Shown here piece after piece: positions 12,629 to 38,641 of a stretch of DNA of 64,000 nucleotides (its first letter is position 1; the number at the start of each line of letters is the position of its first letter). This DNA is from a virus. The notes beneath the pieces are model-generated. The model saw nothing but the letters and a program-made list of their open reading frames with translations. It made no database searches and was not told the DNA's origin. The position numbers and the translations under genes were made by a program. The stretch lies in IMG/VR virus record IMGVR_UViG_3300009151_000031; one strand, written 5' to 3'.

Positions 12629-12635
12629 AAATCAT

Positions 12636-12713: not shown

Positions 12714-12741
12714 ATAAATCTTTTTAATGTATAATAGGTAT

Positions 12742-13050
12742 ATGATGAATAAATTAATCCGTGATGGTCAAGTTGCTGTACTAGTAAGTCCAGGATATGG
12801 TGCTGGCTGGTACTCGTGGCATTCAATTGAAGAACTGGTCTACGATCCTAGCATAGTAGAGTGGTTAGAACAAGGTGAAATGCCAAAAATTCAAGCATAC
12901 TTGGCCTTAAAATACAAAGATGAGTATTTTGGTGGCCTAGAAGATTTAGTAGTAATGTGGGTACCTGAAGGAGCTCGGTTTCGTATTAAAGAATATGACG
13001 GAGCAGAGAGCTTGGTACTTGAATCACAAGAACGCTGGATGACAGCATAA
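12742..13050 (+). CDS. Hypothetical protein (start probably 12742)
   Basis: VAVLVSPGYGAGWYSW, FRIKEYDGAESL; ATG 6 nt after TATAAT. Confidence 0.7.
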   Translation: MMNKLIRDGQVAVLVSPGYGAGWYSWHSIEELVYDPSIVEWLEQGEMPKIQAYLALKYKDEYFGGLEDLVVMWVPEGARFRIKEYDGAESLVLESQERWMTA

Positions 13051-13059
13051 GGAGGCCGT

Positions 13060-13524
13060 ATGTCCTGGATTGAAAATGTAGCGGCTGTAGATGTGTCTAG
13101 CGGATTCCATCATGCGGCTGGTCCTAACAGTATGCTGATTAGTATTGCTGACTGTGGTAGTTGGCGCCCAGAATCAAAGCACGAATTCAAGGAGCGTCAC
13201 AACTTTGAGTTTCTTGATATTGAGCTTAACGATTTTGCTTTAGAAGAAGCAATGCGTTGTAGCCAAGAGCAAGCAGATGAATTAGTTCGTTTGCTACAAC
13301 ATGCACTGGCTAATCGTATGAATGTGGTTGTACATTGTACCGCTGGCATTTGTAGATCCGGTGCAGTAACAGAAGTTGGAGTTATGTTAGGTTTTGATGA
13401 TACTGAACGGTTTCGTAGTCCTAATTTGTTAGTAAAACATCGTATGATGAAAGCCCTTGGGTGGACATACAATGAAAACGAAAAGCCAAACATTGATGAC
13501 TGGCGTACTTTTAGGAGTGTCTGA
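13060..13524 (+). CDS. Cys-based (PTP/dual-specificity) phosphatase
   Basis: VHCTAGICRSG = HCx5R P-loop; RBS AAGGAGG. Confidence 0.8.
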   Translation: MSWIENVAAVDVSSGFHHAAGPNSMLISIADCGSWRPESKHEFKERHNFEFLDIELNDFALEEAMRCSQEQADELVRLLQHALANRMNVVVHCTAGICRSGAVTEVGVMLGFDDTERFRSPNLLVKHRMMKALGWTYNENEKPNIDDWRTFRSV

Positions 13525-13721
13525 TGACAATTAATGCTATTTCACAATATAATAATAAAATATTTAATTTGATGGCTGTAAAGCAGTTGGATTTTAGACA
13601 TGAAGAACTTCGCTTAGAAGCAGTTCGAGTAAAAGAACAGCTTGAAGAAAATGAGCAAAAACGAATTGAAATGAATCGCCGGATGAATCGGCCCGGACAA
13701 AATGTTGATAAACTAGCGTAA
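13524..13721 (+). CDS. Small basic coiled-coil hypothetical protein
   Basis: TGATG overlap; ends PGQNVDKLA. Confidence 0.6.
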   Translation: MTINAISQYNNKIFNLMAVKQLDFRHEELRLEAVRVKEQLEENEQKRIEMNRRMNRPGQNVDKLA

Positions 13722-13743
13722 CTCAAATTGAAAGGAGTATAAT

Positions 13744-14346
13744 ATGCCAGCAGTATTTTTAGTAAGCGACACGCACTTTGGTCATGCCGGTGTATGCCGT
13801 TTTACCCGCAACGATGGTGTTACAAAACTTCGCCCATGGGATGATGCAGACGAAATGGATGAATTCATGGTCAAGGCCTGGAACGAACGTGTTCGTCCTA
13901 ACGATAAAGTTTATCACTTAGGCGATGTAGTTATTAACCGTAAAAGTCTTGCTATTATGCGTAGGCTCAACGGGGATAAAGTTCTTATCCGTGGTAACCA
14001 CGATATCTTTAAGGACACTGACTATCGTGAACATTTCCGTGAACTTCGTGCATACCATGTGATGAATGGAATGATTCTTAGTCACATTCCTGTACACGTA
14101 GAGTCACTTGGTCGGTTTGGTGTTAACATTCACGGACACTTACACGCAAATCGTGTTAAGAAAATTCGTGGAGTAAACGCCAAGACAGGTGAACTTCTGT
14201 ACAGTGATGAACCAGATGTACGCTACCATTGCGTATGTGTGGAGCAAACTGACTTTGCACCTATTCTGTTTGAAGATGTTATCAAACGTATTGAAGCAGA
14301 AGGTGGTTCCGTGGGTTTCCGTAACGGTAACGGCCCTACGATGTAA
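13744..14346 (+). CDS. Calcineurin-like metallophosphoesterase
   Basis: SDTHFGH, YHLGDV, GNHD, LSHIP, HGHLH. Confidence 0.88.
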   Translation: MPAVFLVSDTHFGHAGVCRFTRNDGVTKLRPWDDADEMDEFMVKAWNERVRPNDKVYHLGDVVINRKSLAIMRRLNGDKVLIRGNHDIFKDTDYREHFRELRAYHVMNGMILSHIPVHVESLGRFGVNIHGHLHANRVKKIRGVNAKTGELLYSDEPDVRYHCVCVEQTDFAPILFEDVIKRIEAEGGSVGFRNGNGPTM

Positions 14347-14406
14347 GAACAGTCTTGGACACGCAGACTTTAAAGCGAGGTGGGAGTAGGTGGAAGCCCT
14401 GCATCT

Positions 14407-14515
14407 ATATAAAAACACATCTATGATCTGGGATATGCGAATGCGTACATATAAACTAAGATCCCACTTGTTAGTGGGTACGGGAGTGGGAATCTCCCTA
14501 GGTGTGTTTCTATAT
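14407..14515 (+). ncRNA. Closed-stem three-hairpin element abutting tRNA-Met
   Basis: 17-nt outer stem (15 WC, 1 GU, 1 mismatch) enclosing GATCT/AGATC, CCCAC/GTGGG, GGGAG/CTCCC. Confidence 0.55.
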
Positions 14516-14590
14516 GGAAATATAGCACAGCGGTAGTGCATCGCCTTCATACGGCGCAGGTCAGTAGTTCAAATCTACTTATTTCCACCA
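14516..14590 (+). tRNA. trnM: tRNA-Met(CAT), elongator type
   Basis: loop TTCATAC, paired G1-C72, A73, CCA. Confidence 0.8.
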
Positions 14591-14594
14591 ATTA

Positions 14595-14673
14595 CGGAGT
14601 GTAGGAAAGTCTGGCTTAATCCGCCTCGTTTGGGACGAGGAGACCGAAGGTTCGAATCCTTCCATTCCGACCA
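14595..14673 (+). tRNA. trnP: tRNA-Pro(TGG)
   Basis: CCTCG-TTTGGGA-CGAGG, C1-G72, A73, CCA. Confidence 0.93.
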
Positions 14674-14678
14674 TATAT

Positions 14679-14754
14679 AGGACTTTAGCTCAGTTGGTAG
14701 AGCGTCTGCCTTACACGCAGAATGTCGTCAGTTCGAACCTGGCAAGTCCTACCA
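14679..14754 (+). tRNA. trnV: tRNA-Val(TAC)
   Basis: TCTGC-CTTACAC-GCAGA, CCA. Confidence 0.95.
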
Positions 14755-14757
14755 TTT

Positions 14758-14833
14758 GCCCCTATAGCTCAGTTGGTAGAGCACCGCCTTGATAAGGCGT
14801 AGGTCCCTGGTTCGAGTCCAGGTGGAGGCACCA
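14758..14833 (+). tRNA. trnI: tRNA-Ile(GAT)
   Basis: loop TTGATAA, A73, CCA; one C-A mismatch in acceptor. Confidence 0.9.
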
Positions 14834-14837
14834 ATAT

Positions 14838-14914
14838 CGGCCTTTAACTCAATTGGATAGAGTGCAAGTCTTCGAAACTTGAAGTTGGGAGTTCGAATCT
14901 CTCAGGGCCGGCCA
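14838..14914 (+). tRNA. trnR: tRNA-Arg(TCG)
   Basis: CAAGT-CTTCGAA-ACTTG, CCA. Confidence 0.92.
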
Positions 14915-14920
14915 AATTAC

Positions 14921-14996
14921 AGGACGTTAGCTCAGCCGGTAGAGCAGTAGACTTTTAATCTATTGGTCGTGGGTTCGATCCCCGCACGTCCTACCA
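14921..14996 (+). tRNA. trnK: tRNA-Lys(TTT)
   Basis: GTAGA-CTTTTAA-TCTAT, A73, CCA. Confidence 0.95.
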
Positions 14997-14998
14997 AT

Positions 14999-15074
14999 GC
15001 TACTTTAGCTGATGTGGTCATAGCGGCGGTTTGAAGAACCGTTGAACTAGGTTCGATTCCTAGAGGTAGCACCA
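14999..15074 (+). tRNA. trnF: tRNA-Phe(GAA)
   Basis: GCGGT-TTGAAGA-ACCGT, CCA. Confidence 0.92.
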
Positions 15075-15083
15075 AATTATTGT

Positions 15084-15157
15084 TGGGGGTTAGTGTAGCG
15101 GTAACACTACAGACTTTGACTCTGTCATCACTGGTTCGATCCCAGTACCCTCTGCCA
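15084..15157 (+). tRNA. trnQ: tRNA-Gln(TTG)
   Basis: ACAGA-CTTTGAC-TCTGT, 1-72 mismatch, G73, CCA. Confidence 0.93.
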
Positions 15158-15163
15158 AATTAC

Positions 15164-15238
15164 CTCGCCTTAGTATAATGGATAATACAGTAGGCTTCTA
15201 CCCTACGAATGTGGGTTCGATTCCTGCAGGCGAGGCCA
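15164..15238 (+). tRNA. trnR: tRNA-Arg(TCT)
   Basis: GTAGG-CTTCTAC-CCTAC, G73, CCA. Confidence 0.93.
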
Positions 15239-15244
15239 AACAAT

Positions 15245-15320
15245 GGTGACTATAGTGTAAAGGTTAACACCACGGATTGTGATTCCGTTAATATGGGTTC
15301 GATTCCCATTAGTTACCCCA
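15245..15320 (+). tRNA. trnH: tRNA-His(GTG)
   Basis: G-1/C73, ACGGA-TTGTGAT-TCCGT, CCA. Confidence 0.95.
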
Positions 15321-15328
15321 ATCAATAT

Positions 15329-15406
15329 ACCCCTGTAGGCAAATTGGTAAAGCCAACTCTCTTAAAAGGAGTAGTCTTCCCTGTTCGAATCAGGGCAGGG
15401 GTACCA
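15329..15406 (+). tRNA. tRNA with TAA anticodon and short variable region (atypical Leu?)
   Basis: ACTCT-CTTAAAA-GGAGT, 6-nt variable region AGTCTT, acceptor ACCCCTG/CAGGGGT, A73, CCA. Confidence 0.75.
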
Positions 15407-15411
15407 ATCAA

Positions 15412-15501
15412 GGAAGTGTGTCTGAGTCCGGCTTAAGGAAACAGTCTTGAAAACTGTCGGCTGTAAAAGGTCCGTGGGTTCGAATCCCACCGCTTCCGCC
15501 A
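15412..15501 (+). tRNA. trnS: tRNA-Ser(TGA)
   Basis: ACAGT-CTTGAAA-ACTGT, long variable arm, G73, CCA. Confidence 0.95.
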
Positions 15502-16803
15502 TTAATAAATGCTTAACTTGCCTTCGATGCAATGCAAGTATCGTGTTTGATCGTTCTTAAAATCCTGCGCTTTAACTGCGCCAGTACTAGGAATACTACT
15601 GTCACCGATGTAATACATTGGACTAATGTATTGCTTAAGGTCTCGTAATTGTCCGTCTAGAGTTTTTGTAATGTATCTAGCATCTAAGTTAGTAGACATA
15701 AATTCTACACCGGCTTCCCAAATCTGATATTGTTTAGTATCGATAAAATTTTGAAAGAACCAATTATCCATTTCTGCTCTGATGCCGGTAGTAGGTTTAG
15801 CAACTTGGAAGGTATTAAAGTCATAGTCGGGATAAACAATAGCACGTACAAGACCTTCGTACGTAGTGCGGTTATAGTGATCGCCATTGGGCCAGCGTAC
15901 AGCACTTTGGAAATTATAATGCATGGGCATTTCAAACCATTGTCGTACCATGTGTGCTTGTTTAGTTAACATTGCACAACTATCTGGTGACCAGTAAAAC
16001 AGTTCTGTTGTCACATTGGTAATATCACCCATGTCTGCGCTGTTGTGATTAGCAAGTGGATCTTGGAAATACAAGAACCACCGACAGTCTTTGACACACA
16101 GCTTGGGTTTATCGCAGCCAAATACCATGGCAATACGTATATTGCAATCAACCAAGTTCTTTTGTTCTGCACTACTGGCCACAGTATGCTTTGACCATTG
16201 TCCAGGCTGTAATGCATGACGAGTGCGAAAGATCCAAGACTCATCTGTACCTTGACGATCGATCAAATCGTCTGTGTAATCGTGTATGGTAATTTTTGTA
16301 GCAGGATAGTTTGCGGCAATCCAATTCATTATTGGTTTGACAGCAAAATCAAACTCGCTGAGATGATTGGCAGAACTGGTATCCCAGGGATTGCCTGATG
16401 CGTTTTTATCTGCTTGTTTTGGGTAACGATAGATAACTTCGTCTAAGTGTATTCCGTTAAGCAAAAACGCAAATGCTACTGTGGCACTATCGGCACCACC
16501 GCTTAACTCTAGACGTACATAGTCATAGTTATCGCGAATAGATTGTGCGCGACGTCGATACAGTTCACGTATATCTTCTTCGGGCTCAATATGCCAGGCA
16601 TGTTTTAAGAATACATCTTCGTTAAATAGCCAGCGCACAGGATCGTTATTGAGATTGTGTGCATGACCGGGAAGTTTTGAACCAGCTAAGATTGCTTGGT
16701 TTTTATTATAAAATACTTCATTACCTAAAGTATAGTAGCCAAGTTTTTTGTTTGGTTCAAATTTAATACCACCTGCAGAGGTGTGTTCAATTTTAGGTAG
16801 CAT
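15502..16803 (-). CDS. PP-loop (adenine nucleotide alpha hydrolase) family protein
   Basis: RLELSGGADSATV motif; TAAATA motifs upstream on minus strand near 16840-16850. Confidence 0.65.
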   Translation of the reverse strand: MLPKIEHTSAGGIKFEPNKKLGYYTLGNEVFYNKNQAILAGSKLPGHAHNLNNDPVRWLFNEDVFLKHAWHIEPEEDIRELYRRRAQSIRDNYDYVRLELSGGADSATVAFAFLLNGIHLDEVIYRYPKQADKNASGNPWDTSSANHLSEFDFAVKPIMNWIAANYPATKITIHDYTDDLIDRQGTDESWIFRTRHALQPGQWSKHTVASSAEQKNLVDCNIRIAMVFGCDKPKLCVKDCRWFLYFQDPLANHNSADMGDITNVTTELFYWSPDSCAMLTKQAHMVRQWFEMPMHYNFQSAVRWPNGDHYNRTTYEGLVRAIVYPDYDFNTFQVAKPTTGIRAEMDNWFFQNFIDTKQYQIWEAGVEFMSTNLDARYITKTLDGQLRDLKQYISPMYYIGDSSIPSTGAVKAQDFKNDQTRYLHCIEGKLSIY

Positions 16804-16829
16804 AGTTGATTATAACAGATAAGTAAGTG

Positions 16830-16858
16830 TTGACGCAAGTATTTATTTAATATATAAT
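16830..16858 (+). promoter_or_regulatory. sigma70 promoter, back-to-back with minus-strand late motif
   Basis: TTGACG-17 nt-TATAAT. Confidence 0.75.
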
Positions 16859-16879
16859 ACATCAATAATGAAAGGTGAT

Positions 16880-17023
16880 ATGAGCCATAACGACACACTC
16901 AATCGAGCATACGGTAATATCCCAAAAGAAGTCGGATACACAGTTGACTTCAGTTTCATGCCATTTCATCGCCCAGTTAAGTATTTTTGGCTTACCTGGA
17001 TTGTAAGAAAGTTTTTTAGATAA
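16880..17023 (+). CDS. 47-aa hypothetical protein MSHNDTLNRAYGNIPKEVG...WIVRKFFR
   Basis: RBS AAAGGTG; below ORF-track cutoff; alternative ATG 16868. Confidence 0.6.
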   Translation: MSHNDTLNRAYGNIPKEVGYTVDFSFMPFHRPVKYFWLTWIVRKFFR

Positions 17024-17028
17024 TCTAA

Positions 17029-17103
17029 CGCGGGGTACGTCAGTGGTAGACCGCCAGGCTCATAACCTGGAAGACGGAGGTTCGAATCCTTCCCCCGCAA
17101 CCA
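17029..17103 (+). tRNA. trnfM: Initiator tRNA-fMet(CAT)
   Basis: C1-A72 mismatch, CCAGG-CTCATAA-CCTGG, CCA. Confidence 0.9.
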
Positions 17104-17106
17104 AAT

Positions 17107-18186
17107 ATGTTACACCTAATACTACACCCATTAAAACGCCCAGCCGAAAAACAAGTTGATCTACTTGTTGCAACCTTAGACATGCACGGAATTGATTACG
17201 TTAAATGTAGTATTGACAAGGTTCCAGCAGGAGCCACAATCATCACAGATTGTTTTATAATGGAAACTCCTTGTGGAGATCCGGGCAATGATATTGCTAG
17301 TAATATTATAGATCATGCCGCAAGTCACAATAACAAAATTGTATTTTATTATCCTAGCGAAAGCTACGCAACATTATCGGCAAGTTTTTGCCCTACCGCA
17401 GAAGCAATACAAGAAAAAAATGTCAAGGGATATTTAGTAAAGTGTGGTGACTGGGATATAGATGGTTACGTAAAAAATTATAACATGCCAGAGTTTTTTG
17501 CATGGATACTTAATAATGAATTTAATCGTACCAGATTAGACTATACACACAGTCTGATAGATACTATGACAAAGTCACACAAGTTCCTATTCTTTAACGG
17601 AGAGTTCCGCAACAATAGAGAACGCTTCTTTGAATTGTTTAAAGAGGCTGGATTACTTGAATCAAGTATATGGAGTCATAGGTCGGGCAAGAGTGCAGAA
17701 GGCTTCGGTCCTGACAAAGATTGGCCGGATCCATTTATACATCCAGACTTTAGATTTTATGCATATTATCCTAGTCATTATTATGACACTAGTATAAGCA
17801 TTGTGAGTGAAACTACACAAACAGAATTCTTCCCTACGGAAAAGACCTATAAGAGTTTAATGCTAGGACATCCATTTGCTGTGTATGGCGGGCAACATAG
17901 TCTACGTAAACTGCAAGCATTAGGATTTGAAACGTTTGGCGATAGCATAGATGAAACGTATGACAACTGCGAGTGGCCAGAAGAACGTGCCAATGTTCTA
18001 ATAGAAAGTCTAAAAAATTGCAGTATTCCACGACCCAGTAACCATAATAGGCTACAATTTCAGAAAGTGGCTAATTCAGCATACAATCATCTGTTAAATA
18101 TCTTGCAAGATATAGATAATAATGTTATAATAAAAGAGAACTTTGCAGTCAGTAGTTCTGTTTTGAACAAGTATTTTTTAAATTAA
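17107..18186 (+). CDS. Putative glycosyltransferase-like protein
   Basis: C-terminal SIVSET..FPTEKTYKSL...PF.VYG...LRKL..LGFETF..IDETYD, GT10-like by inference. Confidence 0.45.
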   Translation: MLHLILHPLKRPAEKQVDLLVATLDMHGIDYVKCSIDKVPAGATIITDCFIMETPCGDPGNDIASNIIDHAASHNNKIVFYYPSESYATLSASFCPTAEAIQEKNVKGYLVKCGDWDIDGYVKNYNMPEFFAWILNNEFNRTRLDYTHSLIDTMTKSHKFLFFNGEFRNNRERFFELFKEAGLLESSIWSHRSGKSAEGFGPDKDWPDPFIHPDFRFYAYYPSHYYDTSISIVSETTQTEFFPTEKTYKSLMLGHPFAVYGGQHSLRKLQALGFETFGDSIDETYDNCEWPEERANVLIESLKNCSIPRPSNHNRLQFQKVANSAYNHLLNILQDIDNNVIIKENFAVSSSVLNKYFLN

Positions 18187-18195
18187 AGGATTACA

Positions 18196-18423
18196 ATGCC
18201 ACAGTACATCAGCCGCGGAGCATCAATTGACACAGAAAAATGTGTTGCAGAAGCAGGTGGAAATAGATTTGATTTAGTCATTATGGCCACTCAACGTGCC
18301 AGAGAAATTAAACAACGTAATCAACATAGTGTAAAGCATGAGCATCTACATGGTGTAGTTACAGCACTAATAGAAATACAAGATGGTAATGTAGATCCCA
18401 ATTGGAAACAAAAAGTTCGATGA
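18196..18423 (+). CDS. rpoZ: RNA polymerase omega subunit homolog
   Basis: GNRFDLVIMATQRAREI and VTALIEIQDG match omega NRFDLV..A..RAR / ALREIEEG. Confidence 0.8.
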   Translation: MPQYISRGASIDTEKCVAEAGGNRFDLVIMATQRAREIKQRNQHSVKHEHLHGVVTALIEIQDGNVDPNWKQKVR

Positions 18424-18857
18424 AACCAAAGTTTCAACAGCTATATATAACTATAGCAAGTACAGTAGCAACAATGAGTACAGCACGTCGCCTACAAGTT
18501 GGTGCTATTGTGGTCAAAGATGATCGTGTTATTAGTATGGGCTACAATGGTATGCCTAGTGGGTGGGACAATAATTGCGAAGATGAAATATGTTGGCCCA
18601 ATGGGGAAATAAAGTTTTTAACAACTAAACCGGAGGTACTTCATGCTGAAACTAATGCAATCGCTAAGTTGGCAAGATCAAACGAGTCTGGCCTTGGTGC
18701 TACTATGTTCATTACTCACTCACCTTGCTTGGACTGTGCCAAATTGGTTTACCAATCTGGTATCAATACTGTTTATTATCGCAATAGTTATCGTAACGAA
18801 GAAGGCATACAATTCCTGGAAAAAGCAGGAGTAGAAGTAGTAAAATTAGAAGATTAA
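18420..18857 (+). CDS. dCMP deaminase (ComEB-like)
   Basis: GYNGMPSG, HAETNAI, SPCLDCAK zinc motifs. Confidence 0.9.
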   Translation: MKPKFQQLYITIASTVATMSTARRLQVGAIVVKDDRVISMGYNGMPSGWDNNCEDEICWPNGEIKFLTTKPEVLHAETNAIAKLARSNESGLGATMFITHSPCLDCAKLVYQSGINTVYYRNSYRNEEGIQFLEKAGVEVVKLED

Positions 18858-18858
18858 C

Positions 18859-18934
18859 GGGGGTGTAGCTCATTTGGGAGAGCGCCTGCTTTGCAAGCAG
18901 GATGTAGCAAGTTCGATCCTTGTCACCTCCACCA
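18859..18934 (+). tRNA. trnA: tRNA-Ala(TGC)
   Basis: G3-U70, CCTGC-TTTGCAA-GCAGG, CCA. Confidence 0.95.
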
Positions 18935-18940
18935 AAATAA

Positions 18941-19028
18941 GGAAAGTTGGCCGAGTGGTTAAGGCAACGGTTTGCTAAACCGTCGTCCCGAAAGGGGCGC
19001 ATAGGTTCGAATCCTATACTTTCCGCCA
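18941..19028 (+). tRNA. trnS: tRNA-Ser(GCT)
   Basis: ACGGT-TTGCTAA-ACCGT, long variable arm, G73, CCA. Confidence 0.95.
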
Positions 19029-19093
19029 AATTGTATCAAAAAAGTGTAAACGACAATAAATAAGTACATATACACTTACCAGGAGTTTCCCCC

Positions 19094-20059
19094 ATGAGTC
19101 AAACACGTACAATACGTTGGGTTTTATACCACGAACCAGTTGATTTGTTTTTGCGTACAGCCAAGGCATTCAGCGAAGAAATCGCTCGTACAACCAACGG
19201 CCGTTTAGCAGTTGAAATTTTAACAACACAAGAGTTTGCTGACAAATACAACAAAGATGCTGGCCTAGAACCATTGACTTGGATGCAGTCAGGCGATGCA
19301 GAAATGACACAAGTTCAAGTTGTGCATTTAGGTATTTGGCATGCTCCAGAGTTTTTTGCACTGGAATTGCCATTCTTGTTTGATAGTCACGAACATGCTA
19401 CTCGCGTACTAGAAGGAGATATTGGTGAAACTATGCTAGGCGATCTAGATAGCAAGACTCCGGTACACGGTTTAGCATTCACATATTCAGGCGGTTATCG
19501 TTGTTTAGCACTCGACCGTGAAATTAGTAAAGCTGAAGATCTTCAAGGTCTTAAGATGGTGACTAATACAAACCCAGTATCAATTGATACAGCAGAAGCA
19601 TTTGGATGCGTTGCAGTACCAGTCAATCTAAAAGAAGCAGTAAACGTTAATAGAAACAACGACAACAATCACAACGGCAACAACGCAATCGAAACAACAT
19701 TGCCACGTTATGAAAAAGAAGCCAAGAGTGCAGTACATACACACGTAAGCAATACACGTCACAGCATGTATCTAACAAGTATTTTAATTAGTAAGGACTT
19801 CTGGGCAAGTTTAAGTGCAGAAGATCAAGCGTCTATCAAGGCAGCGGCAATGCACAGTTCTGCATTAGAACGCCATTGGACTGTTAATGATAGTGCCAAG
19901 ATTGCTAACAGCACAGAAGAACAAGCTAAAATGGGCATTAGTTATACTGAGTTTGCTGATAGCGAACGTGCTAAATTAAAAGAATTAGTACAGCCAATGT
20001 ACAACAAGTATCGCCAAATCTTTGGCGTTGATCTAGTAGATGGAATTATCAAGGGATAA
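19094..20059 (+). CDS. TRAP/DctP-family solute-binding protein paralog 3, no signal peptide
   Basis: HEPVDLFLRTA, ALELPFLFDSHEHATRVLEG, YSGGYRC, DLQGLK, ISKDFWASLSAEDQ. Confidence 0.8.
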   Translation: MSQTRTIRWVLYHEPVDLFLRTAKAFSEEIARTTNGRLAVEILTTQEFADKYNKDAGLEPLTWMQSGDAEMTQVQVVHLGIWHAPEFFALELPFLFDSHEHATRVLEGDIGETMLGDLDSKTPVHGLAFTYSGGYRCLALDREISKAEDLQGLKMVTNTNPVSIDTAEAFGCVAVPVNLKEAVNVNRNNDNNHNGNNAIETTLPRYEKEAKSAVHTHVSNTRHSMYLTSILISKDFWASLSAEDQASIKAAAMHSSALERHWTVNDSAKIANSTEEQAKMGISYTEFADSERAKLKELVQPMYNKYRQIFGVDLVDGIIKG

Positions 20060-20707
20060 ATGAAAGACTTTAGTTTTTCAATTCTTAAAAATAACGAAGT
20101 ACAAAAAATAACATTCCAGGACTTAGCCTTAAACAAGCGAGTCCTGGTTTGCTCTGTTGTCCGTATGCAAACCCATGTTTCGGATTTGTATGTTAAAGAA
20201 TTAATTAAGCAAACTACTAGTTACAAACAACAAGGCATTGACGAAGTTTATCTAATAAACTCATGCCATGGACTATTTGCACTTGCAAGATTTGATAAGA
20301 TATTTCCGGAAATTACAATGTTAGCAGATACTGATAATCAATTTGTAACGTGGATTAGTAGTACGGTAAACAAAGCTACGCAGACTATAGATAATTTATC
20401 AAAGTATTGGAGTTATCAAGTACTACTGAACAATGGCAAAATAGAGCAATTTTACGAACAGCCAACTGAAAATTATATTAGACATTTAATTAAGGCTGGA
20501 CACAAACCAAATTTGGCACACCAAAAGTTTTTTATAACCGAAGGCGACACAGTTGCATTACATCGCCCTGGGTTAAGTAGAGAAGAACAAAATACATTTG
20601 GACATTTGCCATTTGATGGTGCTCGGTGTACTCCGTTGGAGTTTATGTATTTTAATCTTTGTCCAAACACTAAATTAAATCAATATTTGCTTGACACACA
20701 GGTGTAA
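20060..20707 (+). CDS. Degenerate Prx5/redoxin-fold protein 3
   Basis: DLALNKRVLV, QGIDEVYLIN, MLADTDNQF, WSYQVLLNNGKIEQFYEQP. Confidence 0.55.
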   Translation: MKDFSFSILKNNEVQKITFQDLALNKRVLVCSVVRMQTHVSDLYVKELIKQTTSYKQQGIDEVYLINSCHGLFALARFDKIFPEITMLADTDNQFVTWISSTVNKATQTIDNLSKYWSYQVLLNNGKIEQFYEQPTENYIRHLIKAGHKPNLAHQKFFITEGDTVALHRPGLSREEQNTFGHLPFDGARCTPLEFMYFNLCPNTKLNQYLLDTQV

Positions 20708-20719
20708 CTAGTATATAAT
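20691..20719 (+). promoter_or_regulatory. sigma70 promoter for 256-nt RNA and tRNA-Thr
   Basis: TTGACA-17 nt-TATAAT. Confidence 0.85.
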
Positions 20720-20727
20720 TAATACAA

Positions 20728-20983
20728 GTAATAAGTTTGGGTACATGGTGTGGCGACCATCTGATACATGTGGTAGTCTTAGTAATAGTATGTAACACAC
20801 GACCCCGTGGCACTGATACTGCAAAATCGGGTACTCCCGAGGGTACAAGGAATTTTAAAACTATGAACAGGTGCAAGAGTCCATGAAAAAGCCTGTGAAG
20901 GCAAGCTATTTAGCCGAGTCGCTCTTGGTTAGCATTGTGGTCCACTGTCGAAAAGCAGATTTAGGTGTACCCAAACTTATTAC
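20728..20983 (+). ncRNA. Candidate 256-nt structured RNA with paired ends
   Basis: Perfect 18-bp terminal stem GTAATAAGTTTGGGTACA/TGTACCCAAACTTATTAC starting at predicted TSS; internal hairpins. Confidence 0.7.
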
Positions 20984-20998
20984 ATTAAATAGTATTAT

Positions 20999-21074
20999 GC
21001 CCTTTTAGCTCATTTGGTAGAGCAACGCACTTGTAATGCGTAGGTGGTCAGTTCGAATCCGACAAAGGGCACCA
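20999..21074 (+). tRNA. trnT: tRNA-Thr(TGT)
   Basis: ACGCA-CTTGTAA-TGCGT, CCA. Confidence 0.95.
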
Positions 21075-31796: not shown

Positions 31797-33419
<1,623 letters not shown>

Positions 33420-33533
33420 TTGATCAATAAATAGAAGTAACACGGCCCTGACCTCTGCGGATTGATCATCCTGGCACGTTGGGGTTTTCTTTGGCCAAAA
33501 CGTATAAATAACAGTATAGAGGGAGATTTATAA

Positions 33534-33818
33534 ATGATTCGCATATACGCCTTACACGAACAAGAAGAACAAATTTATCAACTACACGAGTGGTTAAACA
33601 GCAAAGACTTGCCAATTGAACACGCATACGTAGACTTGAATGAAGATGCCAAAGCAGTTGCTGAACAATATAACCTAACAGTATTTCCAGTACTATTTGA
33701 ACTTAAAAATTTAAATGGCAAAGACATTATTACCAAGTTTGCAGACGGCAAAGATATTGACAAAATGTCCGACGACATGATTGCCAAAATCAAGGCAGAA
33801 TTGACACCAGCCGAGTAA
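33534..33818 (+). CDS. Thioredoxin/glutaredoxin-fold protein without cysteines
   Basis: YVDLNED, AEQYNLTVFPVLF cis-Pro pattern; TATAAATA at 33503-33510. Confidence 0.5.
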   Translation: MIRIYALHEQEEQIYQLHEWLNSKDLPIEHAYVDLNEDAKAVAEQYNLTVFPVLFELKNLNGKDIITKFADGKDIDKMSDDMIAKIKAELTPAE

Positions 33819-33838
33819 GAAAATTACCAATTACATAT

Positions 33839-33862
33839 AAACCCGCTTAGGCGGGTTTTTTA
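33839..33862 (+). terminator. Rho-independent terminator
   Basis: AAACCCGC-TTAG-GCGGGTTT + T run. Confidence 0.85.
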
Positions 33863-33916
33863 TTGACCTATTAATCGTTTAATGCTATACTTGTGTTATC
33901 AATTAATTTAAGGATT

Positions 33917-34117
33917 GTGATGAAACTCAAAGAAATAATCATTGATGAATACGAAACTGCATTTCCGTATGAGCAGGAATATAATCTGTGGATTGAGGGC
34001 ATGGAACGGGATTTTCAAGAAGAACTAGAATACAGGGCTAAGTTAGTGGTCACTAACAAAGTAGTACTTTATGCTGATGGAGAAGAATTAAGCCCGTTTG
34101 CTACTGTAAATTCCTAG
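33917..34117 (+). CDS. Acidic early hypothetical protein
   Basis: Promoter TTGACC-17-TATACT at 33863-33891; RBS AAGGA. Confidence 0.6.
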   Translation: MMKLKEIIIDEYETAFPYEQEYNLWIEGMERDFQEELEYRAKLVVTNKVVLYADGEELSPFATVNS

Positions 34118-34118
34118 G

Positions 34119-34147
34119 TTGACCCATAAATCCATTAAATGTATAAT
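34119..34147 (+). promoter_or_regulatory. Repeated early promoter copy 1
   Basis: TTGACCCATAAATCCATTAAATGTATAAT. Confidence 0.85.
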
Positions 34148-34153
34148 CAATAC

Positions 34154-34381
34154 ATGAAGTTAGAAATCAACGATATTTTACAGTGGACTGGAACAGTCTG
34201 TTTTATGGCGATGTATACACTTATGTCGCTGAACATTTATCCATGGAATATTGTAGCTGGAATCTGCGGTAGTACTTGTTACTTACTGTGGTGTATCCGT
34301 GTTGCAAATAAGCCACAAATGGTGGTCAATGCTGTAGGCATACTAGTATGCTTGGTGGGCCTGGTAAAAGCCTTTGGTTGA
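34154..34381 (+). CDS. Small 3-TM membrane protein (leaderless start 34154)
   Basis: Three hydrophobic segments; ATG 6 nt after -10. Confidence 0.7.
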   Translation: MKLEINDILQWTGTVCFMAMYTLMSLNIYPWNIVAGICGSTCYLLWCIRVANKPQMVVNAVGILVCLVGLVKAFG

Positions 34382-34406
34382 CCCATAAATCCATTAAATG
34401 TATAAT
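34378..34406 (+). promoter_or_regulatory. Repeated early promoter copy 2
   Basis: Identical 29-mer to copy 1. Confidence 0.85.
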
Positions 34407-34437
34407 AGTTGTATTGTTTAGTTAAAAGGGGTTTTAG

Positions 34438-34773
34438 ATGAAGCTGATGATTACCACACAAATTCAGGAAAACTACGGTGCCCACGATTGGGACGGTATT
34501 GGTGCTTGCCCACAGTATTGGAAGTTCAAGGGTGGTAATGATTACTCATATGCGTTGGGCTCACACTTACGCAACCCGGAAGCTCTTGCAGAGTTGGTTG
34601 AGGCTTTCCGCGGTCAGATTGATTGCGATAACGAAGGTTATCGCGAGTACATTGTTGGTTGGTCTGTTGAGTCAGATGACTACCTTACTGACTTTGAACA
34701 AAGCCAGTTGGAGTACGAGGGTAAGATTACTTATCGTACTACCGAATTAAAATTACAAGAAGCTGTGGCGTAA
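34438..34773 (+). CDS. Early hypothetical protein
   Basis: TQIQENYGAHDWDG.G.CPQYWKFKGG; RBS AAGGGG. Confidence 0.75.
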   Translation: MKLMITTQIQENYGAHDWDGIGACPQYWKFKGGNDYSYALGSHLRNPEALAELVEAFRGQIDCDNEGYREYIVGWSVESDDYLTDFEQSQLEYEGKITYRTTELKLQEAVA

Positions 34774-34789
34774 AAACAACACCTAGATG

Positions 34790-34818
34790 TTGACCCTAAA
34801 ATCCATTAAATGTATAAT
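34790..34818 (+). promoter_or_regulatory. Repeated early promoter copy 3
   Basis: TTGACCCTAAAATCCATTAAATGTATAAT (2 differences). Confidence 0.85.
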
Positions 34819-34850
34819 AGTTGTATTGTGTTAATAAAGAAGGAGCTAAA

Positions 34851-35894
34851 ATGACTGTATCTTTTGTGCGTATTAAATCTGGTGCTTATCGTACTACAGA
34901 TGTTTCCGGCCAAGTGTTTCAGCTAGTTGAGCAATATAAGTTCACAGCTAAAGGTGGCTATGTTACTGTTAAGAATGGTGGCCGGTTTCCTGGCATGCCA
35001 GTTGACATCCGTGTCAAAGTTGAAGGCATGAGCGATTACGATTTTGTAAGCGAAACTGAATTCGTTGAAGCAGGTAATACACCTGTTAAAGAAGCCGTTG
35101 CACTAGAAGTTGCGGCAGAATCTGATGAAGAAGTGATTGCACGTATTCGTCAGCGTTTTGAGATCTTGGATGAGATGACTACTGCCGCAACAAACGGCGA
35201 CATCCGTGCCATGATTGTAAGTGGCCCTCCTGGTGTTGGTAAATCATTTGGTGTTGAGCGTATTGTTGAGAAGGCTTGTTTGTTTGATCAAATCTCAGGT
35301 AAGCGTCTCCGTGCAGAAGTCATTAAAGGCTCAACAAGTGCCTTGGGTTTGTATTGCCAACTGTACAAATACAGTGATGCCAACAGTATGCTAGTGTTTG
35401 ATGACTGTGACTCAATTTTGCTTGATGACGTAAGTTTGAACTTGCTTAAAGGTGCCCTGGACTCAGGTAAGAAACGTAAGATTTCGTGGTTGTCAGATAG
35501 CCATATGTTGCGTCGTGAAGGCGTTCCAGATAGTTTTGAGTTTAAAGGAAGTGTGATTTTTATTACCAACCTTAAGTTTGATCAAATGAAATCGCAAAAG
35601 TTGCGTGATCACTTGGATGCACTACAAAGCCGTTGTCACTATTTGGATTTGACTTTAGACACAATGCGTGACAAGGTCCTGCGTATTAAACAGATTGCCA
35701 GTGACGGTGGTTTGTTTGACGAATATGACTTTGAACAATGTGAGCAAGATGAACTCATTGAGTTCTTGGAAACTAACAAGAACAAGTTCCGTGAAATGAG
35801 CCTGCGTATGGCAATCAAGATCGCGGATTTGAAGAAGAGCTTCCCACTCAAGTGGAAGGCTATGGCTCAAGTTACTTGCATGAAAACTGCATAA
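34851..35894 (+). CDS. AAA+ ATPase with N-terminal beta domain
   Basis: GPPGVGKS Walker A, LVFDDCD Walker B, FITN sensor, ALQSR finger; RBS AGGAG. Confidence 0.8.
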   Translation: MTVSFVRIKSGAYRTTDVSGQVFQLVEQYKFTAKGGYVTVKNGGRFPGMPVDIRVKVEGMSDYDFVSETEFVEAGNTPVKEAVALEVAAESDEEVIARIRQRFEILDEMTTAATNGDIRAMIVSGPPGVGKSFGVERIVEKACLFDQISGKRLRAEVIKGSTSALGLYCQLYKYSDANSMLVFDDCDSILLDDVSLNLLKGALDSGKKRKISWLSDSHMLRREGVPDSFEFKGSVIFITNLKFDQMKSQKLRDHLDALQSRCHYLDLTLDTMRDKVLRIKQIASDGGLFDEYDFEQCEQDELIEFLETNKNKFREMSLRMAIKIADLKKSFPLKWKAMAQVTCMKTA

Positions 35895-35898
35895 GTTT

Positions 35899-35988
35899 TA
35901 TAGCCGAAAGGCTATACTACCATAGCTCTCTTTAGCTCCTGAGTTATGGTTTTCGATCCCCGGGTTTAACTGCTCGGGGATTTTTTTA
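35899..35988 (+). terminator. Structured 3' UTR: GAAA hairpin, anti-SD loop hairpin, intrinsic terminator
   Basis: TATAGCC-GAAA-GGCTATA; CCATAGCTC/GAGTTATGG; ATCCCCGGG/CTCGGGGAT + T7. Confidence 0.8.
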
Positions 35989-36023
35989 TTTGCAATATCA
36001 TTGAATGTATGCTACAATAACAT

Positions 36024-37196
36024 ATGGCTCAATACACACATCAATACGTAGAAGACTACATCGAAATTATTGCTGGTTACAGAGAACCTAGTGGTAAAAG
36101 TAACTACAGTATCTTTACTGTGGGAGAAAGTCCACTTAGTCTGGCCAGGTACGATATGAAAGTTGTACCAAGTTTGGCTGAGCAAATAATAGCAGGCAAA
36201 GGATTCACAGACAAACAGGCCGCGTTGGCTGTGTCCTTGATTATTAAATACGAAAGACAGTTAACTAAATTATTGGTTGATATTACGCCAGTCAGGACAC
36301 CACAGTATAGAATTCCTTTGCGAACAATTGACAGAGAAAGTCGAGTATGGGTAGAAGGTGATATTATCAATTTGAAGTTTCCTTACGATACCAAGCTAAT
36401 TGATCTAGTAAGGACTGCCAGCAAGGAGAGCAAAGGTAACATACACTTTAACAGAGAACGACGTGTGCAAGAGTTATCCTTGACCGAATGGAACGTGAAC
36501 TGGGTATATACATTTGCTCAGGTTAACAATCTCACAATAGATCCTGGTCTAGAAGCAATAATGCAAACACTACTGGCGGCAGAAAATACTCCTTATGCAA
36601 TTGAACTGACATACAACAATGGTGTTTTATCCATTAGTAATGCCACAGACAGTTTAATAGAATATGTAAATAGTAATGTTGGGTTTGATGATTTACTCAA
36701 ACTTATTGATCATGCACCAATTCTTGGGTACACCGTAAACAGTACAATACGTGATACAGTTGTAGAGCAATGTGGGACACGTTTTTGGAGCCTGTGTGCT
36801 AACCGTGAACTCAAAGTTGATCCGCAAACAAGTCATGGCCTGGTTAAAGACCTTGCTGACTACGCAGAGAAAACTAATCGTTTTCCTATATACGTTTATG
36901 AAGCTGACTTGACTGATAGGTTGTTGAATGAATTTACAAAACACTTTCCTGACCAAGTTTTTAAATTAGGCAATCAAAAGACCATACCAGATGATCCAAC
37001 AATTAAAGTAATTTACACAAATAAAATTCCACGTACACCGCTTAACGGTCGTATTCCGTTATTGGTTAGTAGTGCAGGTATGTTACATGGTGGCGACAGG
37101 CAGATATGGATTCAAACAGCCGAAAAGATTGTGTACTTTGCCAAAGACGTGTATACTAAGAACTCTAAAGGACCCGAAGTTTGCAAGCTAGACTAA
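36024..37196 (+). CDS. Hypothetical protein (leaderless), upstream partner of helicase
   Basis: TTGCAA-17-TACAAT at 35990-36018, ATG 5 nt later; FPYD motif. Confidence 0.75.
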   Translation: MAQYTHQYVEDYIEIIAGYREPSGKSNYSIFTVGESPLSLARYDMKVVPSLAEQIIAGKGFTDKQAALAVSLIIKYERQLTKLLVDITPVRTPQYRIPLRTIDRESRVWVEGDIINLKFPYDTKLIDLVRTASKESKGNIHFNRERRVQELSLTEWNVNWVYTFAQVNNLTIDPGLEAIMQTLLAAENTPYAIELTYNNGVLSISNATDSLIEYVNSNVGFDDLLKLIDHAPILGYTVNSTIRDTVVEQCGTRFWSLCANRELKVDPQTSHGLVKDLADYAEKTNRFPIYVYEADLTDRLLNEFTKHFPDQVFKLGNQKTIPDDPTIKVIYTNKIPRTPLNGRIPLLVSSAGMLHGGDRQIWIQTAEKIVYFAKDVYTKNSKGPEVCKLD

Positions 37197-38641
37197 TAAT
37201 CAAAGATGAAGTGAATGTCAAGATTGAAGGATTAGATCTTGCCGACCGCACGGCGCTGGTAAAGAAATTCAAGTATGAAATCCCGGGAGCTCGTTATCAA
37301 CCAAGTGTGCGATTAGGCAGGTGGGACGGCAAAGTAGCCTTCTTCCAACTTGGCGGCAGTACATACATCAATTTGTTGCCAGATATTATTACTTATTTGG
37401 AAAGCCATAATTACGATATTGAGATTGATGACCAAAGAACTTACAGCACTAACTTTGCATTTGACCAAGTAGCCGAAGATAGCTTTGCAGATATTAGTTG
37501 GCCAAAAGGACATCCAGCCGCAGGTCAACCTATTATGCTTCGAGACTATCAGGTACAAATTCTAAATAACTTTTTAGCAAATCCACAAAGCATACAAGAA
37601 GTAGCTACAGGCGCAGGCAAGACTATTATGACTGCGGCCTTGAGTAAAAGTGTAGAGTCGTATGGTCGCAGTATTATTATTGTCCCAAACAAAAGTTTAG
37701 TAACACAAACAGAAGATGACTACAAGAACATGGGGCTAGACGTAGGTGTGTACTTTGGTGACCGTAAAGAGTTCGGCAAGACTCATACTATTTGTACATG
37801 GCAAAGTCTAAACATCCTGTTAAAGAATACACAAGCCGGCATCGGTGATGTTACTATTGGCGACTTTATTGAAGATGTTGTATTGGTCATGGTTGATGAA
37901 GTACACATGGCCAAAGCAGATGCGTTAAAGACTCTGCTTACCGGTGTATTTGCTCGGGTACCTATTCGCTGGGGATTAACAGGAACTATTCCCAAAGAAG
38001 ATTACGAGTTTGTTAGCCTGCGTTGTAGTTTAGGTGATGTCATTGGCAAACTAAGTGCTAGCGAACTTCAAGAAGCTGGACATTTGGCCAATTGTCACGT
38101 AAATATAGTACAGTTAATAGATCACGTAGAGTACAAAGAGTATCAAACAGAATTAAAGTATCTAACAGAAACACCGGAACGTTTAAAGTATATTTCAGAC
38201 CTAGTCACCAGCGTCAATGACACAGGCAATACACTAGTCCTAGTAGATCGTATTGCCACCGGTAAGTTACTTACAGAACAATTAGGCGATCGTGCTGTAT
38301 TTGTTAGTGGTAGTACCAAAGCCAAAGACAGGAAAGATGAATATGATGAAATTGCTACTAGTACTGGGAAAATTATTGTTGCTACTTATGGTGTTGCCGC
38401 TGTTGGGATTAATATTCCTCGCATTTTTAATCTTGTGCTTGTGGAACCGGGAAAATCCTTTGTCCGCGTTATCCAATCCATCGGGCGTGGTATTCGCAAA
38501 GCGGAGGACAAGGACTTCGTTCAAATCTGGGACATAACTAGTACCTGTAAGTTTGCCAAGCGACATTTGACCAAGCGCAAGCAGTTCTATAAAGAAGCAA
38601 ACTATCCCTTTACAATAGAAAAAGCAGAATGGCAAAATTAA
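37181..38641 (+). CDS. uvsW: SF2 helicase, UvsW-like
   Basis: LRDYQ, ATGAGKT, VDEVH, GLTGT, QSIGRGIR. Confidence 0.85.
   Translation: MQARLIIKDEVNVKIEGLDLADRTALVKKFKYEIPGARYQPSVRLGRWDGKVAFFQLGGSTYINLLPDIITYLESHNYDIEIDDQRTYSTNFAFDQVAEDSFADISWPKGHPAAGQPIMLRDYQVQILNNFLANPQSIQEVATGAGKTIMTAALSKSVESYGRSIIIVPNKSLVTQTEDDYKNMGLDVGVYFGDRKEFGKTHTICTWQSLNILLKNTQAGIGDVTIGDFIEDVVLVMVDEVHMAKADALKTLLTGVFARVPIRWGLTGTIPKEDYEFVSLRCSLGDVIGKLSASELQEAGHLANCHVNIVQLIDHVEYKEYQTELKYLTETPERLKYISDLVTSVNDTGNTLVLVDRIATGKLLTEQLGDRAVFVSGSTKAKDRKDEYDEIATSTGKIIVATYGVAAVGINIPRIFNLVLVEPGKSFVRVIQSIGRGIRKAEDKDFVQIWDITSTCKFAKRHLTKRKQFYKEANYPFTIEKAEWQN

What the first reader, a model, noticed from the sequence alone, without database searches (positions are those of the whole stretch)
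34841..35988. 3' UTR loop exactly complementary to the same gene's ribosome binding site 1.1 kb away
Seen: the ATPase RBS AGGAGCTAAA (34841-34850, directly before ATG) is the perfect complement of TTTAGCTCCT (35931-35940), displayed in the 12-nt loop of a 9-bp hairpin between a GAAA hairpin and the terminator. Known: 5'-3' pairing silences full-length type I toxin mRNAs, and 3' UTR-derived sRNAs exist. Inference: completed transcripts self-silence so that only nascent mRNA is translated, a timer for a strongly promoted, possibly toxic early ATPase.
Basis: partly seen in the sequence, partly recalled or inferred. Interest (0 to 1): 0.8.

Follow-up and report, generated by a model that had tools for sequence, protein, structure and literature searches.

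The report
Phage mRNA tail mirrors own start
In an uncultured giant phage, a hairpin just before the terminator of an early ATPase operon carries a loop that is the exact complement of that gene's ribosome-binding site. In over a hundred related phage contigs the two sites have changed together, so they very probably base-pair as RNA to hold down the gene's translation.

Summary
AGGAGCTAAA (34841-34850, directly before ATG 34851) is the reverse complement of TTTAGCTCCT (35931-35940). That sequence lies in the 12-nt loop of a 10-bp hairpin, between a GAAA hairpin and an intrinsic terminator.

One window alone is weak evidence (about 0.07 such pairs expected by chance). Relatives make the case:
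- **Real RNA structure:** all 9 stem pairs show compensatory changes.
- **Single copy:** one per window, per locus and per complete ~355-kb genome.
- **Fixed position:** it always sits before the first strong terminator downstream of the ATPase, 9 nt to 6.9 kb from its stop.
- **Excess complementarity:** a match of 8 nt or more to the ATPase leader occurs in 37 of 58 distinct loci, against 0-2 of 58 for composition-matched controls.
- **The paired words change together:** GGAGCUA/UAGCUCC; GGAGCCA/UGGCUCC; GAGUUAGU/ACUAACUC; ACACGGA/UCCGUGU; GUUAAUCCACA/UGUGGAUUAAC.

Best reading: a 3'-end anti-Shine-Dalgarno element represses the operon's first gene. It could act in cis, like S. aureus icaR, or as a 3'-derived sRNA, like Vibrio OppZ/CarZ.

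The "timer" and "toxic ATPase" ideas are untested. No RNA data could be obtained.

This scan has already noted the same phenomenon on other genomes of this phage group.

The parts
34790..34818 (+). Sigma-70-type promoter of the ATPase unit (TTGACC-17-TATAAT). It predicts a leader of about 26 nt.
   Evidence: 11 of 12 consensus positions. A TATAAT at a similar distance from the ATG is seen in most relatives.
34841..34850 (+). Target: Shine-Dalgarno region AGGAGCUAAA of the ATPase mRNA, ending directly before the start codon.
   Evidence: It is the best target of the loop among 77 gene starts in the window. GGAGCU sits 9-13 nt before the ATG in most relatives.
34851..35894 (+). P-loop/AAA ATPase gene (347 aa, phrog_1250, T4 NrdC.10-like), the first gene of the unit.
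35899..35916 (+). Hairpin 1 with a GAAA tetraloop. It is an accessory part, variable or absent in relatives.
35919..35950 (+). Anti-SD hairpin: a 10-bp stem with the 12-nt loop UCUUUAGCUCCU (35929-35940). Loop bases 35931-35940 are complementary to 34841-34850.
   Evidence: fold; 9 of 9 stem pairs have compensatory changes and 99.6% of cells are paired; one copy per window, per locus and per complete genome.
35955..35989 (+). Intrinsic terminator (11-bp stem plus T-run) that ends the unit. It follows a U-rich spacer GGUUUU.

Best explanation
The transcription unit that starts with the ATPase gene ends in a conserved RNA hairpin. Its exposed loop (UAGCUCCU plus flanks) is an extended anti-Shine-Dalgarno sequence, specific for the leader of the unit's first gene.

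Once the 3' end has been transcribed, the loop pairs with AGGAGCUAAA at the ATPase ribosome-binding site. That is 10 bp here. The pairing could occur within the same full-length mRNA, or in trans from stable hairpin-plus-terminator fragments. It competes with the 16S rRNA tail and lowers translation initiation, and probably mRNA stability, of the ATPase. The result is product-proportional negative feedback or shut-off of an early gene.

Shown here: the two sites exist, the hairpin is a real conserved structure, the element is single-copy and operon-terminal, and the complementarity is maintained by compensatory evolution.

Inferred: that the pairing happens in vivo, that it represses, and whether it acts in cis or in trans.
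For: 1. Exact 10-nt complement displayed in a loop.
2. Hairpin stem: 9 of 9 pairs carry double-sided changes, 99.6% paired, against 24-36% when the partner is slid. The loop word TAGCTCC is invariant in 25 distinct sequences.
3. Covariance model R1 finds one hit in the 64-kb window, one per locus and one per complete 355-kb genome.
4. The element lies 9 nt to 6.9 kb downstream of the ATPase stop, always just before a terminator. In a relative with 7.1 kb of intervening genes, that is the only strong + strand terminator.
5. In the register anchored on the GGAG/CTCC core, columns -1 to +8 are paired in 69-100% of 45 distinct loci, and pairing falls to background beyond them. Column +7 shows G-C 16, A-U 15, U-A 4, G-U 2 and 8 unpaired, with several co-switches between sister lineages on the ATPase tree.
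6. The paired word itself changes together (core switches): GGAGCCA/TGGCTCC (L041, L043, L044), GAGTTAGT/ACTAACTC (L076), ACGACACGGA/TCCGTGTTGT (L116), ATTACACGGA/TCCGTGTAGT (L119), GTTAATCCACA/TGTGGATTAAC (L120).
7. The 3' region was defined without reference to the leader, as the stretch upstream of the conserved 390-aa gene. There, a reverse-complement match of 8 nt or more occurs in 37 of 58 rows, against 0, 2 and 2 of 58 for direct, reversed and complement-only controls. In the permutation test, 0 of 20000 shuffles reached the observed value. For the anchored set the permutation gave p about 3e-4.
8. Within the paired columns G-U outnumbers A-C by 29 to 10, as expected for RNA pairing and not for DNA.
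9. Energetics: hybrid -16.6 kcal/mol, opening the RBS +3.6 to +4.6, opening the loop 0, against -8.0 for the SD with the 16S tail.
10. Precedent: anti-SD-like 8-mers placed hundreds of nt downstream pair with the RBS in vivo, block initiation, promote decay and are normally depleted from genes (PMC12697547). See also icaR (PMC3868564) and OppZ/CarZ (PMC7398697).
Against: - There are no RNA-level data.
- Ten of the 12 loop nucleotides cannot all pair without strain or partial opening of the stem (general RNA geometry, an inference).
- Several relatives show no recognisable complement (L052, L056, L058, L069, L070, L072, L075), so the feature is dispensable or has been replaced.
- A few loci tolerate an A-C mismatch next to the 8-bp core (L001, L024, L048).
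- The permutation tests do not correct for shared ancestry.
- Four other genes in a complete relative genome also have GGAGCTA at their RBS, so the ATPase need not be the only target.
Confidence: 0.68

Rival explanations
1. One reading: a cis-acting timer. Only nascent transcripts are translated, each completed mRNA silences itself, and this protects the cell from a toxic early ATPase.
For: It fits the geometry. The anti-SD is transcribed last, behind a strong promoter, and pairing is thermodynamically favoured over the 16S tail.
Against: The distance from ATPase to element varies from 9 nt to 6.9 kb among relatives, so no particular delay is conserved. Nothing indicates toxicity. Cis action cannot be told from trans action with sequence alone.
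Confidence: 0.15
2. The pairing is real but protective or processing-related rather than repressive. A 5'-3' duplex would shield the mRNA ends from RNases, as in B. subtilis hbs. Alternatively it would create an RNase III site that separates the ATPase from the downstream cargo genes.
For: The same covariation evidence applies. In L120 the duplex lies just 5' of the SD rather than on it. The hbs precedent is PMC5737220.
Against: In most loci the duplex covers GGAG itself and runs to within 0-3 nt of the start codon, which should block 30S binding. Ten bp is short for RNase III (general knowledge).
Confidence: 0.1
3. The hairpin is conserved for another reason, such as a protein-binding or 3'-stabilising element or part of the regulatory region of the downstream 390-aa gene. 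On this reading its match to the ATPase ribosome-binding site is coincidental.
For: The element keeps a fixed distance of about 85-110 nt to the downstream gene while its distance to the ATPase varies. In a single window the match is only marginally significant.
Against: Five different complementary words occur at the same two positions. The excess is 37 of 58 against 0-2 of 58 in controls. The downstream gene appears leaderless and has no SD to regulate.
Confidence: 0.05
4. A DNA-level inverted repeat: two sites for one DNA-binding protein, recombination sites, or the ends of a mobile cassette flanking the ATPase and its cargo genes.
For: Variable cargo lies between the two sites. Inverted repeats bound by one protein would also co-vary.
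Against: One copy sits in the loop of a hairpin whose stem co-varies, always on the transcribed strand between promoter and terminator. G-U outnumbers A-C by 29 to 10. The repeats are only 8-11 bp. The left site lies inside the leader, downstream of the promoter.
Confidence: 0.02

Closest known systems
icaR mRNA 5'-UTR/3'-UTR interaction, Staphylococcus aureus (Ruiz de los Mozos et al. 2013, PMC3868564)
   Same: A pyrimidine-rich anti-SD motif in the 3' UTR pairs with the Shine-Dalgarno region of the same mRNA. In icaR this blocks the initiation complex and lowers protein output.
   Different: - There is no sequence relation (UCCCCUG there, UAGCUCCU here).
- The host is a phage, not a Gram-positive chromosome.
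- The motif here is displayed in the loop of a hairpin directly before the terminator.
- The target can lie up to about 8 kb upstream, across several cargo genes.
- RNase III involvement and cis action are untested here.
- The support here is evolutionary covariation, not experiment.
OppZ and CarZ, autoregulatory 3'-UTR-derived sRNAs of Vibrio cholerae (Hoyos et al. 2020, PMC7398697)
   Same: The 3' end of an operon, with terminator hairpin and U-tail, carries a seed complementary to a ribosome-binding site within its own operon. This gives negative feedback proportional to transcription.
   Different: OppZ and CarZ are released by RNase E and need Hfq, and OppZ also triggers Rho termination. 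None of this can be tested here. OppZ targets an internal gene (oppB), whereas here the target is the first gene. There is no sequence relation.
hok mRNA fold-back inhibition (hok/Sok type I toxin-antitoxin; from general knowledge)
   Same: Pairing between the 5' and 3' ends keeps a full-length mRNA translationally inert.
   Different: hok encodes a small membrane toxin. It is activated by 3' trimming and controlled by the Sok antisense RNA. Here the gene is a 347-aa ATPase, no antisense partner was found, and the pairing is directly SD to anti-SD.
Long-range anti-SD-like sequences in Bacillus subtilis mRNAs (Gill et al. 2025 preprint, PMC12697547)
   Same: Anti-SD-like 8-mers far downstream of the RBS pair with it in vivo, inhibit initiation and promote decay.
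   Different: Those were synthetic substitutions, and such words are depleted from natural genes. Here one such word is positively conserved, structured and co-evolving with its target.

Membership tests
icaR-type 5'-3' UTR pairing (works-like comparison) | The 3' UTR motif is complementary to the SD of the same transcript. | tested here: met
   10-nt perfect complement, conserved and compensated in relatives.
icaR-type 5'-3' UTR pairing (works-like comparison) | The pairing blocks 30S binding and creates an RNase III substrate. | not testable with these tools
   This needs toeprinting and RNase III assays. Only nearest-neighbour energies are available.
icaR-type 5'-3' UTR pairing (homology) | Sequence or structure homology to the icaR 3' UTR (UCCCCUG motif). 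| tested here: not met
   The loop is UAGCUCCU. Rfam gives no match at gathering score. The only sub-threshold hit over the element is anti-hemB, 19.2 bits against 49.5 required.
OppZ/CarZ-type autoregulatory 3'-UTR-derived sRNA | A seed at the operon's 3' end is complementary to an RBS in the same operon, next to an intrinsic terminator with a U-tail. | tested here: met
   The element is followed by the first strong terminator after the ATPase.
OppZ/CarZ-type autoregulatory 3'-UTR-derived sRNA | A stable sRNA is released by RNase E and acts with Hfq. | not testable with these tools
   No RNA reads could be obtained and the host is unknown.
hok-type fold-back inhibition (type I toxin mRNA) | A small toxic peptide gene with an antisense RNA partner. 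| tested here: not met
   The gene is a 347-aa P-loop/AAA protein. No promoter-like site appears on either strand within the 3' element itself (35895-35988); the sites at about 35989-36018 belong to the downstream gene. The minus-strand reading of the loop gives only M-V-V-stop (read from the sequence).
Any curated RNA family (Rfam 15) | A match at the family's gathering score. | tested here: not met
   Searches (window 33000-38000; three related loci): no hits at threshold.

The most novel reading that the evidence does not exclude
An operon 'bookend' circuit in giant phages. A single-copy anti-SD hairpin at the end of an early transcription unit reports completed transcription of the whole unit, whatever cargo genes have been inserted. 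It then switches off the unit's first gene by pairing with its leader. This would be an RNA-only feedback or shut-off device that co-evolves freely because it needs no protein. It would be the first 5'-3' mRNA pairing control described in a phage, and a natural library of orthogonal leader/anti-leader pairs.
Probability: 0.3. Interest if true: 0.75.

Novelty: new variant of a known kind. Interest (0 to 1): 0.65.

Why it matters
Pairing between the 3' end of a bacterial mRNA and its own ribosome-binding site is known from only a handful of experimentally studied genes: icaR, hbs and OppZ/CarZ. My literature searches found no phage example.

Here natural variation across more than a hundred phage contigs supplies many compensatory mutation pairs, at least five different complementary words. 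This gives unusually strong comparative evidence for a long-range mRNA interaction.

If the interaction represses, it is a protein-free way for a phage to limit or shut off an early gene. The variants would also form a set of orthogonal leader/anti-leader pairs that could be tested directly in reporters.

It also shows that anti-SD-like words, normally selected against in genes (PMC12697547), can be positively maintained where regulation needs them.

Tried and rejected
- **Nucleotide search of GenBank phages:** no match. The phage has no cultured close relative. The ATPase reaches only about 40% identity, to Pseudomonas phage PA5oct and relatives.
- **PA5oct locus:** no equivalent hairpin. Only a 6-nt GTAGCA/TGCTAC coincidence, not pursued.
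- **Rfam:** nothing at threshold.
- **tRNA or tmRNA at the site:** none.
- **Repeated 'promoter-early stem-loop'-type element (a repeated T4-type regulatory cassette, known to me from general knowledge):** rejected, because model R1 finds a single copy per complete genome.
- **Minus-strand gene using the loop's AGGAG as its own SD:** rejected. The only ATG gives M-V-V-stop, and the stems differ in relatives.
- **Loop aimed at many early genes in this window:** rejected. The ATPase RBS is the best target (-15.5 kcal/mol, 10 nt). The next best is -12.5 kcal/mol with a 6-nt match, and the longest other match is 7 nt, using stem bases.
- **Other cognate leader/3' pairs in this window:** none of 9 nt or more.
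- **Own whole genome:** not held.
- **PDB sequence search of the ATPase:** only generic P-loop similarity to adenylate kinases.
- **Relatives with no recognisable complement:** L052, L056, L058, L069, L070, L072, L075 within the DNA held. L061 and L074 may carry it beyond the fetched 3 kb, as L017, L050, L062 and L073 did.

Full report
**1. The observation**

The window reads aaggagctaaaATG at 34840-34853 and ...ccatagctc tctttagctcct gagttatgg... at 35920-35949. So AGGAGCTAAA (34841-34850) ends directly before the ATG of a 347-codon gene, and TTTAGCTCCT (35931-35940) is its exact reverse complement.

Folding 35892-35990 as RNA gives three hairpins:
- a GAAA hairpin at 35899-35916;
- a 10-bp hairpin at 35919-35950 with the 12-nt loop UCUUUAGCUCCU;
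- a terminator at 35955-35982 followed by a T-run.

The MFE is -41.2 kcal/mol, z = -6.0, and none of 200 shuffles folds as well.

Each 10-mer occurs once in the window. The gene has a near-consensus promoter, TTGACC-17-TATAAT, at 34790-34818, which predicts a leader of about 26 nt.

On its own the match is not compelling. Among 2584 non-cognate combinations of gene leaders and 3' intergenic regions in this window, 5 reach 10 nt. About 0.07 such cognate pairs are therefore expected per window.

**2. Context**

The window comes from a large phage:
- 27 tRNA genes;
- a GroEL-type chaperonin at 31800-33419 and a UvsW-like helicase at 37181-38641;
- no nucleotide match among GenBank phages.

The gene product is a P-loop/AAA protein of PHROG family 1250 (E = 3e-82). 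Its function is unknown. It is about 40% identical to proteins of Pseudomonas phage PA5oct and 33% identical to T4-type NrdC.10 proteins. The PDB gives only generic P-loop similarity. Nothing speaks for or against toxicity.

**3. Relatives**

IMG/VR holds about 290 contigs with a relative of the ATPase. I examined 80 of them at 69-91% identity, and another 80 centred on a more distant member. Two of the contigs are complete genomes of about 355 kb.

In most loci the word AGCTCC occurs once downstream of the ATPase, and GGAGCT occurs once, 9-13 nt before its ATG. The downstream copy always lies in the loop of a hairpin directly in front of an intrinsic terminator.

**4. The hairpin is a real, single-copy RNA structure**

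In 25 distinct sequences the loop word TAGCTCC is invariant while the stem changes freely. All 9 stem pairs show changes on both sides and 99.6% of cells are paired. Only 24-36% are paired when the partner strand is slid by 1-3 columns.

A covariance model of the hairpin finds:
- exactly one hit in the 64-kb window (52 bits; the next best is 10.6 bits);
- one hit per locus, always on the coding strand;
- one hit in each of the two complete genomes.

The GAAA hairpin is not conserved. It is replaced or missing in relatives.

**5. Position**

The element lies from 9 nt to 2.7 kb behind the ATPase stop. In four loci where it seemed absent, it lies 3.2-6.9 kb downstream, behind up to about ten inserted genes.

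In the 7.1-kb case, the only convincing + strand terminator is the one behind the element. The element therefore marks the end of the transcription unit that the ATPase opens, whatever cargo lies between.

It keeps a fixed distance of about 85-110 nt to the next conserved gene, a 390-aa protein at 36024-37196 in the window. That gene appears to be leaderless (see Noticed in passing). It has no SD that the loop could address.

**6. Complementarity is maintained by compensation**

I anchored leader and loop on the GGAG/CTCC core. Columns -1 to +8 are then pairable in 87, 100, 100, 100, 98, 100, 89, 98, 82 and 69% of 45 distinct loci. Beyond them pairing drops to background, 24-60%.

Column +7 has G-C 16, A-U 15, U-A 4, G-U 2 and 8 unpaired. 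On the ATPase tree the A-U/G-C switch occurs between sister lineages several times: L025 against L031, L020 against L009/L026, L036 against the L029 group, and within the window's own clade.

The core itself switches, which is stronger evidence:

| Loci | Leader word | 3' word | Pairing |
|---|---|---|---|
| L041, L043, L044 | AAGGAGCCA | UGGCUCCUU | 9 nt, in the homologous hairpin loop |
| L076 | GAGUUAGU | ACUAACUC | 8 nt |
| L116 | ACGACACGGA | UCCGUGUUGU | 10 bp, one G-U |
| L119 | AUUACACGGA | UCCGUGUAGU | 10 bp |
| L120 | GUUAAUCCACA | UGUGGAUUAAC | 11 bp perfect, just 5' of the SD |

L116, L119 and L120 form a distant clade. There the complement is single-stranded, between the stop codon and the terminator.

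For an unbiased test I defined the 3' region without reference to the leader, as the stretch of up to 170 nt upstream of the 390-aa gene. I then compared it with each locus's own leader (-20 to -1). A reverse-complement match of 8 nt or more occurs in 37 of 58 distinct rows. Direct, reversed and complement-only controls give 0, 2 and 2 of 58. None of 20000 permutations of cognate partners reaches the observed mean. The anchored set gives p about 3e-4. These permutations do not correct for shared ancestry.

Within the paired columns, G-U outnumbers A-C by 29 to 10. RNA pairing predicts this bias. A DNA inverted repeat does not.

**7. Specificity**

In this window the ATPase leader is the best target of the loop among 77 gene starts, at -15.5 kcal/mol with 10 nt. 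The next best is -12.5 kcal/mol with a 6-nt match. The longest other match is 7 nt and uses stem bases.

GGAGCT is under-represented on the coding strand, 4 found against about 10.5 expected, and only one copy lies at a start. In a complete relative genome, four other genes have GGAGCTA at their RBS. That is roughly what chance gives among several hundred genes, but further trans targets are not excluded.

**8. Energetics**

| Term | kcal/mol |
|---|---|
| Leader-loop hybrid | -16.6 |
| Opening the SD in the leader or full-length mRNA | +3.6 to +4.6 |
| Opening the loop | 0 |
| Same SD with the 16S 3' tail | -8.0 |

The loop could therefore outcompete the ribosome once it exists.

A caveat from general RNA geometry: 10 of 12 loop bases cannot all pair without strain or fraying of the stem.

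**9. Mechanism**

The best-supported reading is a 3'-terminal anti-SD element that represses the first gene of its own unit.

Experiments in other systems make this plausible:
- Anti-SD-like 8-mers hundreds of nucleotides downstream pair with the RBS in vivo, block initiation and destabilise the mRNA. They are normally selected against (PMC12697547).
- The icaR 3' UTR pairs with its own SD (PMC3868564).
- OppZ and CarZ are cut from operon 3' ends and repress their own operons (PMC7398697).

The architecture here is a seed hairpin, a U-rich spacer and a terminator with a U-tail. It resembles 3'-derived sRNAs, and the variable distance to the target fits either a cis or a trans mode.

No fixed delay is conserved, however, and toxicity of the ATPase has no support.

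Alternatives I considered are listed with their odds under Rival explanations: a protective or processing duplex, coincidence, and a DNA-level repeat.

**10. Limits**

- There is no RNA evidence.
- Several relatives lack a recognisable complement.
- The host is unknown.

**11. Earlier notes of this scan**

Other notes describe the same phenomenon on an overlapping window of this genome and on several other genomes of the group, with the same precedents. They are not independent evidence. The tests reported here were run on this window and on freshly fetched loci.

**Verdict**

The pairing interpretation is strongly supported by covariation. The timer and toxicity ideas are untested. This is a new, non-homologous, phage-borne variant of a known kind of control.

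Noticed in passing
window 35990-36026 (and the homologous places in L053, L077, L041 etc.): The gene after the terminator (390 aa, 36024-37196, no Pfam or PHROG match) seems to be leaderless. A promoter (TTGCAA-17-TACAAT) starts in the terminator's T-run, and its -10 box ends 5 nt before the ATG. Relatives show TTGACT-17-TATACT followed by 6 nt and then the ATG. No SD is present.
   Followed up: partly
L050, L052, L062, L070, L071, L073, L074, L076: first ~70 nt after the ATPase stop (not present in the window): A second conserved structured element, CCCCUGCCGUGUGCGUAAC-NGGC...AAGYCC-NGUUUCGAUAA. Its stem co-varies (ACAGG/CCUGU, ACGGG/CCCGU, ACCGG/CCGGU) and it carries a variable insert. There is no Rfam match. 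Function unknown.
   Followed up: partly
L116, L119, L120 (3' UTR between ATPase stop and terminator): In this distant clade the complement to the leader is not in a hairpin loop. It is single-stranded, 10-11 bp long, and different in each of three phages. In L120 it pairs just 5' of the SD rather than on it.
   Followed up: yes
window 6914-21074: 27 tRNA genes in several clusters. Together with a GroEL-type chaperonin (31800-33419), they show that this is a giant phage with its own translation and folding helpers.
   Followed up: no
window, whole + strand: GGAGCT occurs 4 times on the + strand against about 10.5 expected from base composition. I did not test whether this reflects avoidance of the loop's target word or of a restriction site (GAGCTC/AGCT).
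   Followed up: no
L115 (Pseudomonas phage PA5oct, NC_071039.1 248690-249935): The PA5oct homolog has the leader AGGAGUAGCAUUU-AUG. A hairpin AAAGUAGCA-AGGA-UGCUACUUU lies right after its stop, and the descending arm is complementary to GUAGCA of the leader (6 nt). This may be chance. It was not evaluated in relatives.
   Followed up: no
window 33760-33864: Weak sub-threshold Rfam hits (rsmX 23.8 bits against 56 required; Trp leader 21.2 against 41) over a terminator-like hairpin behind the gene at 33534-33818. Probably chance.
   Followed up: no
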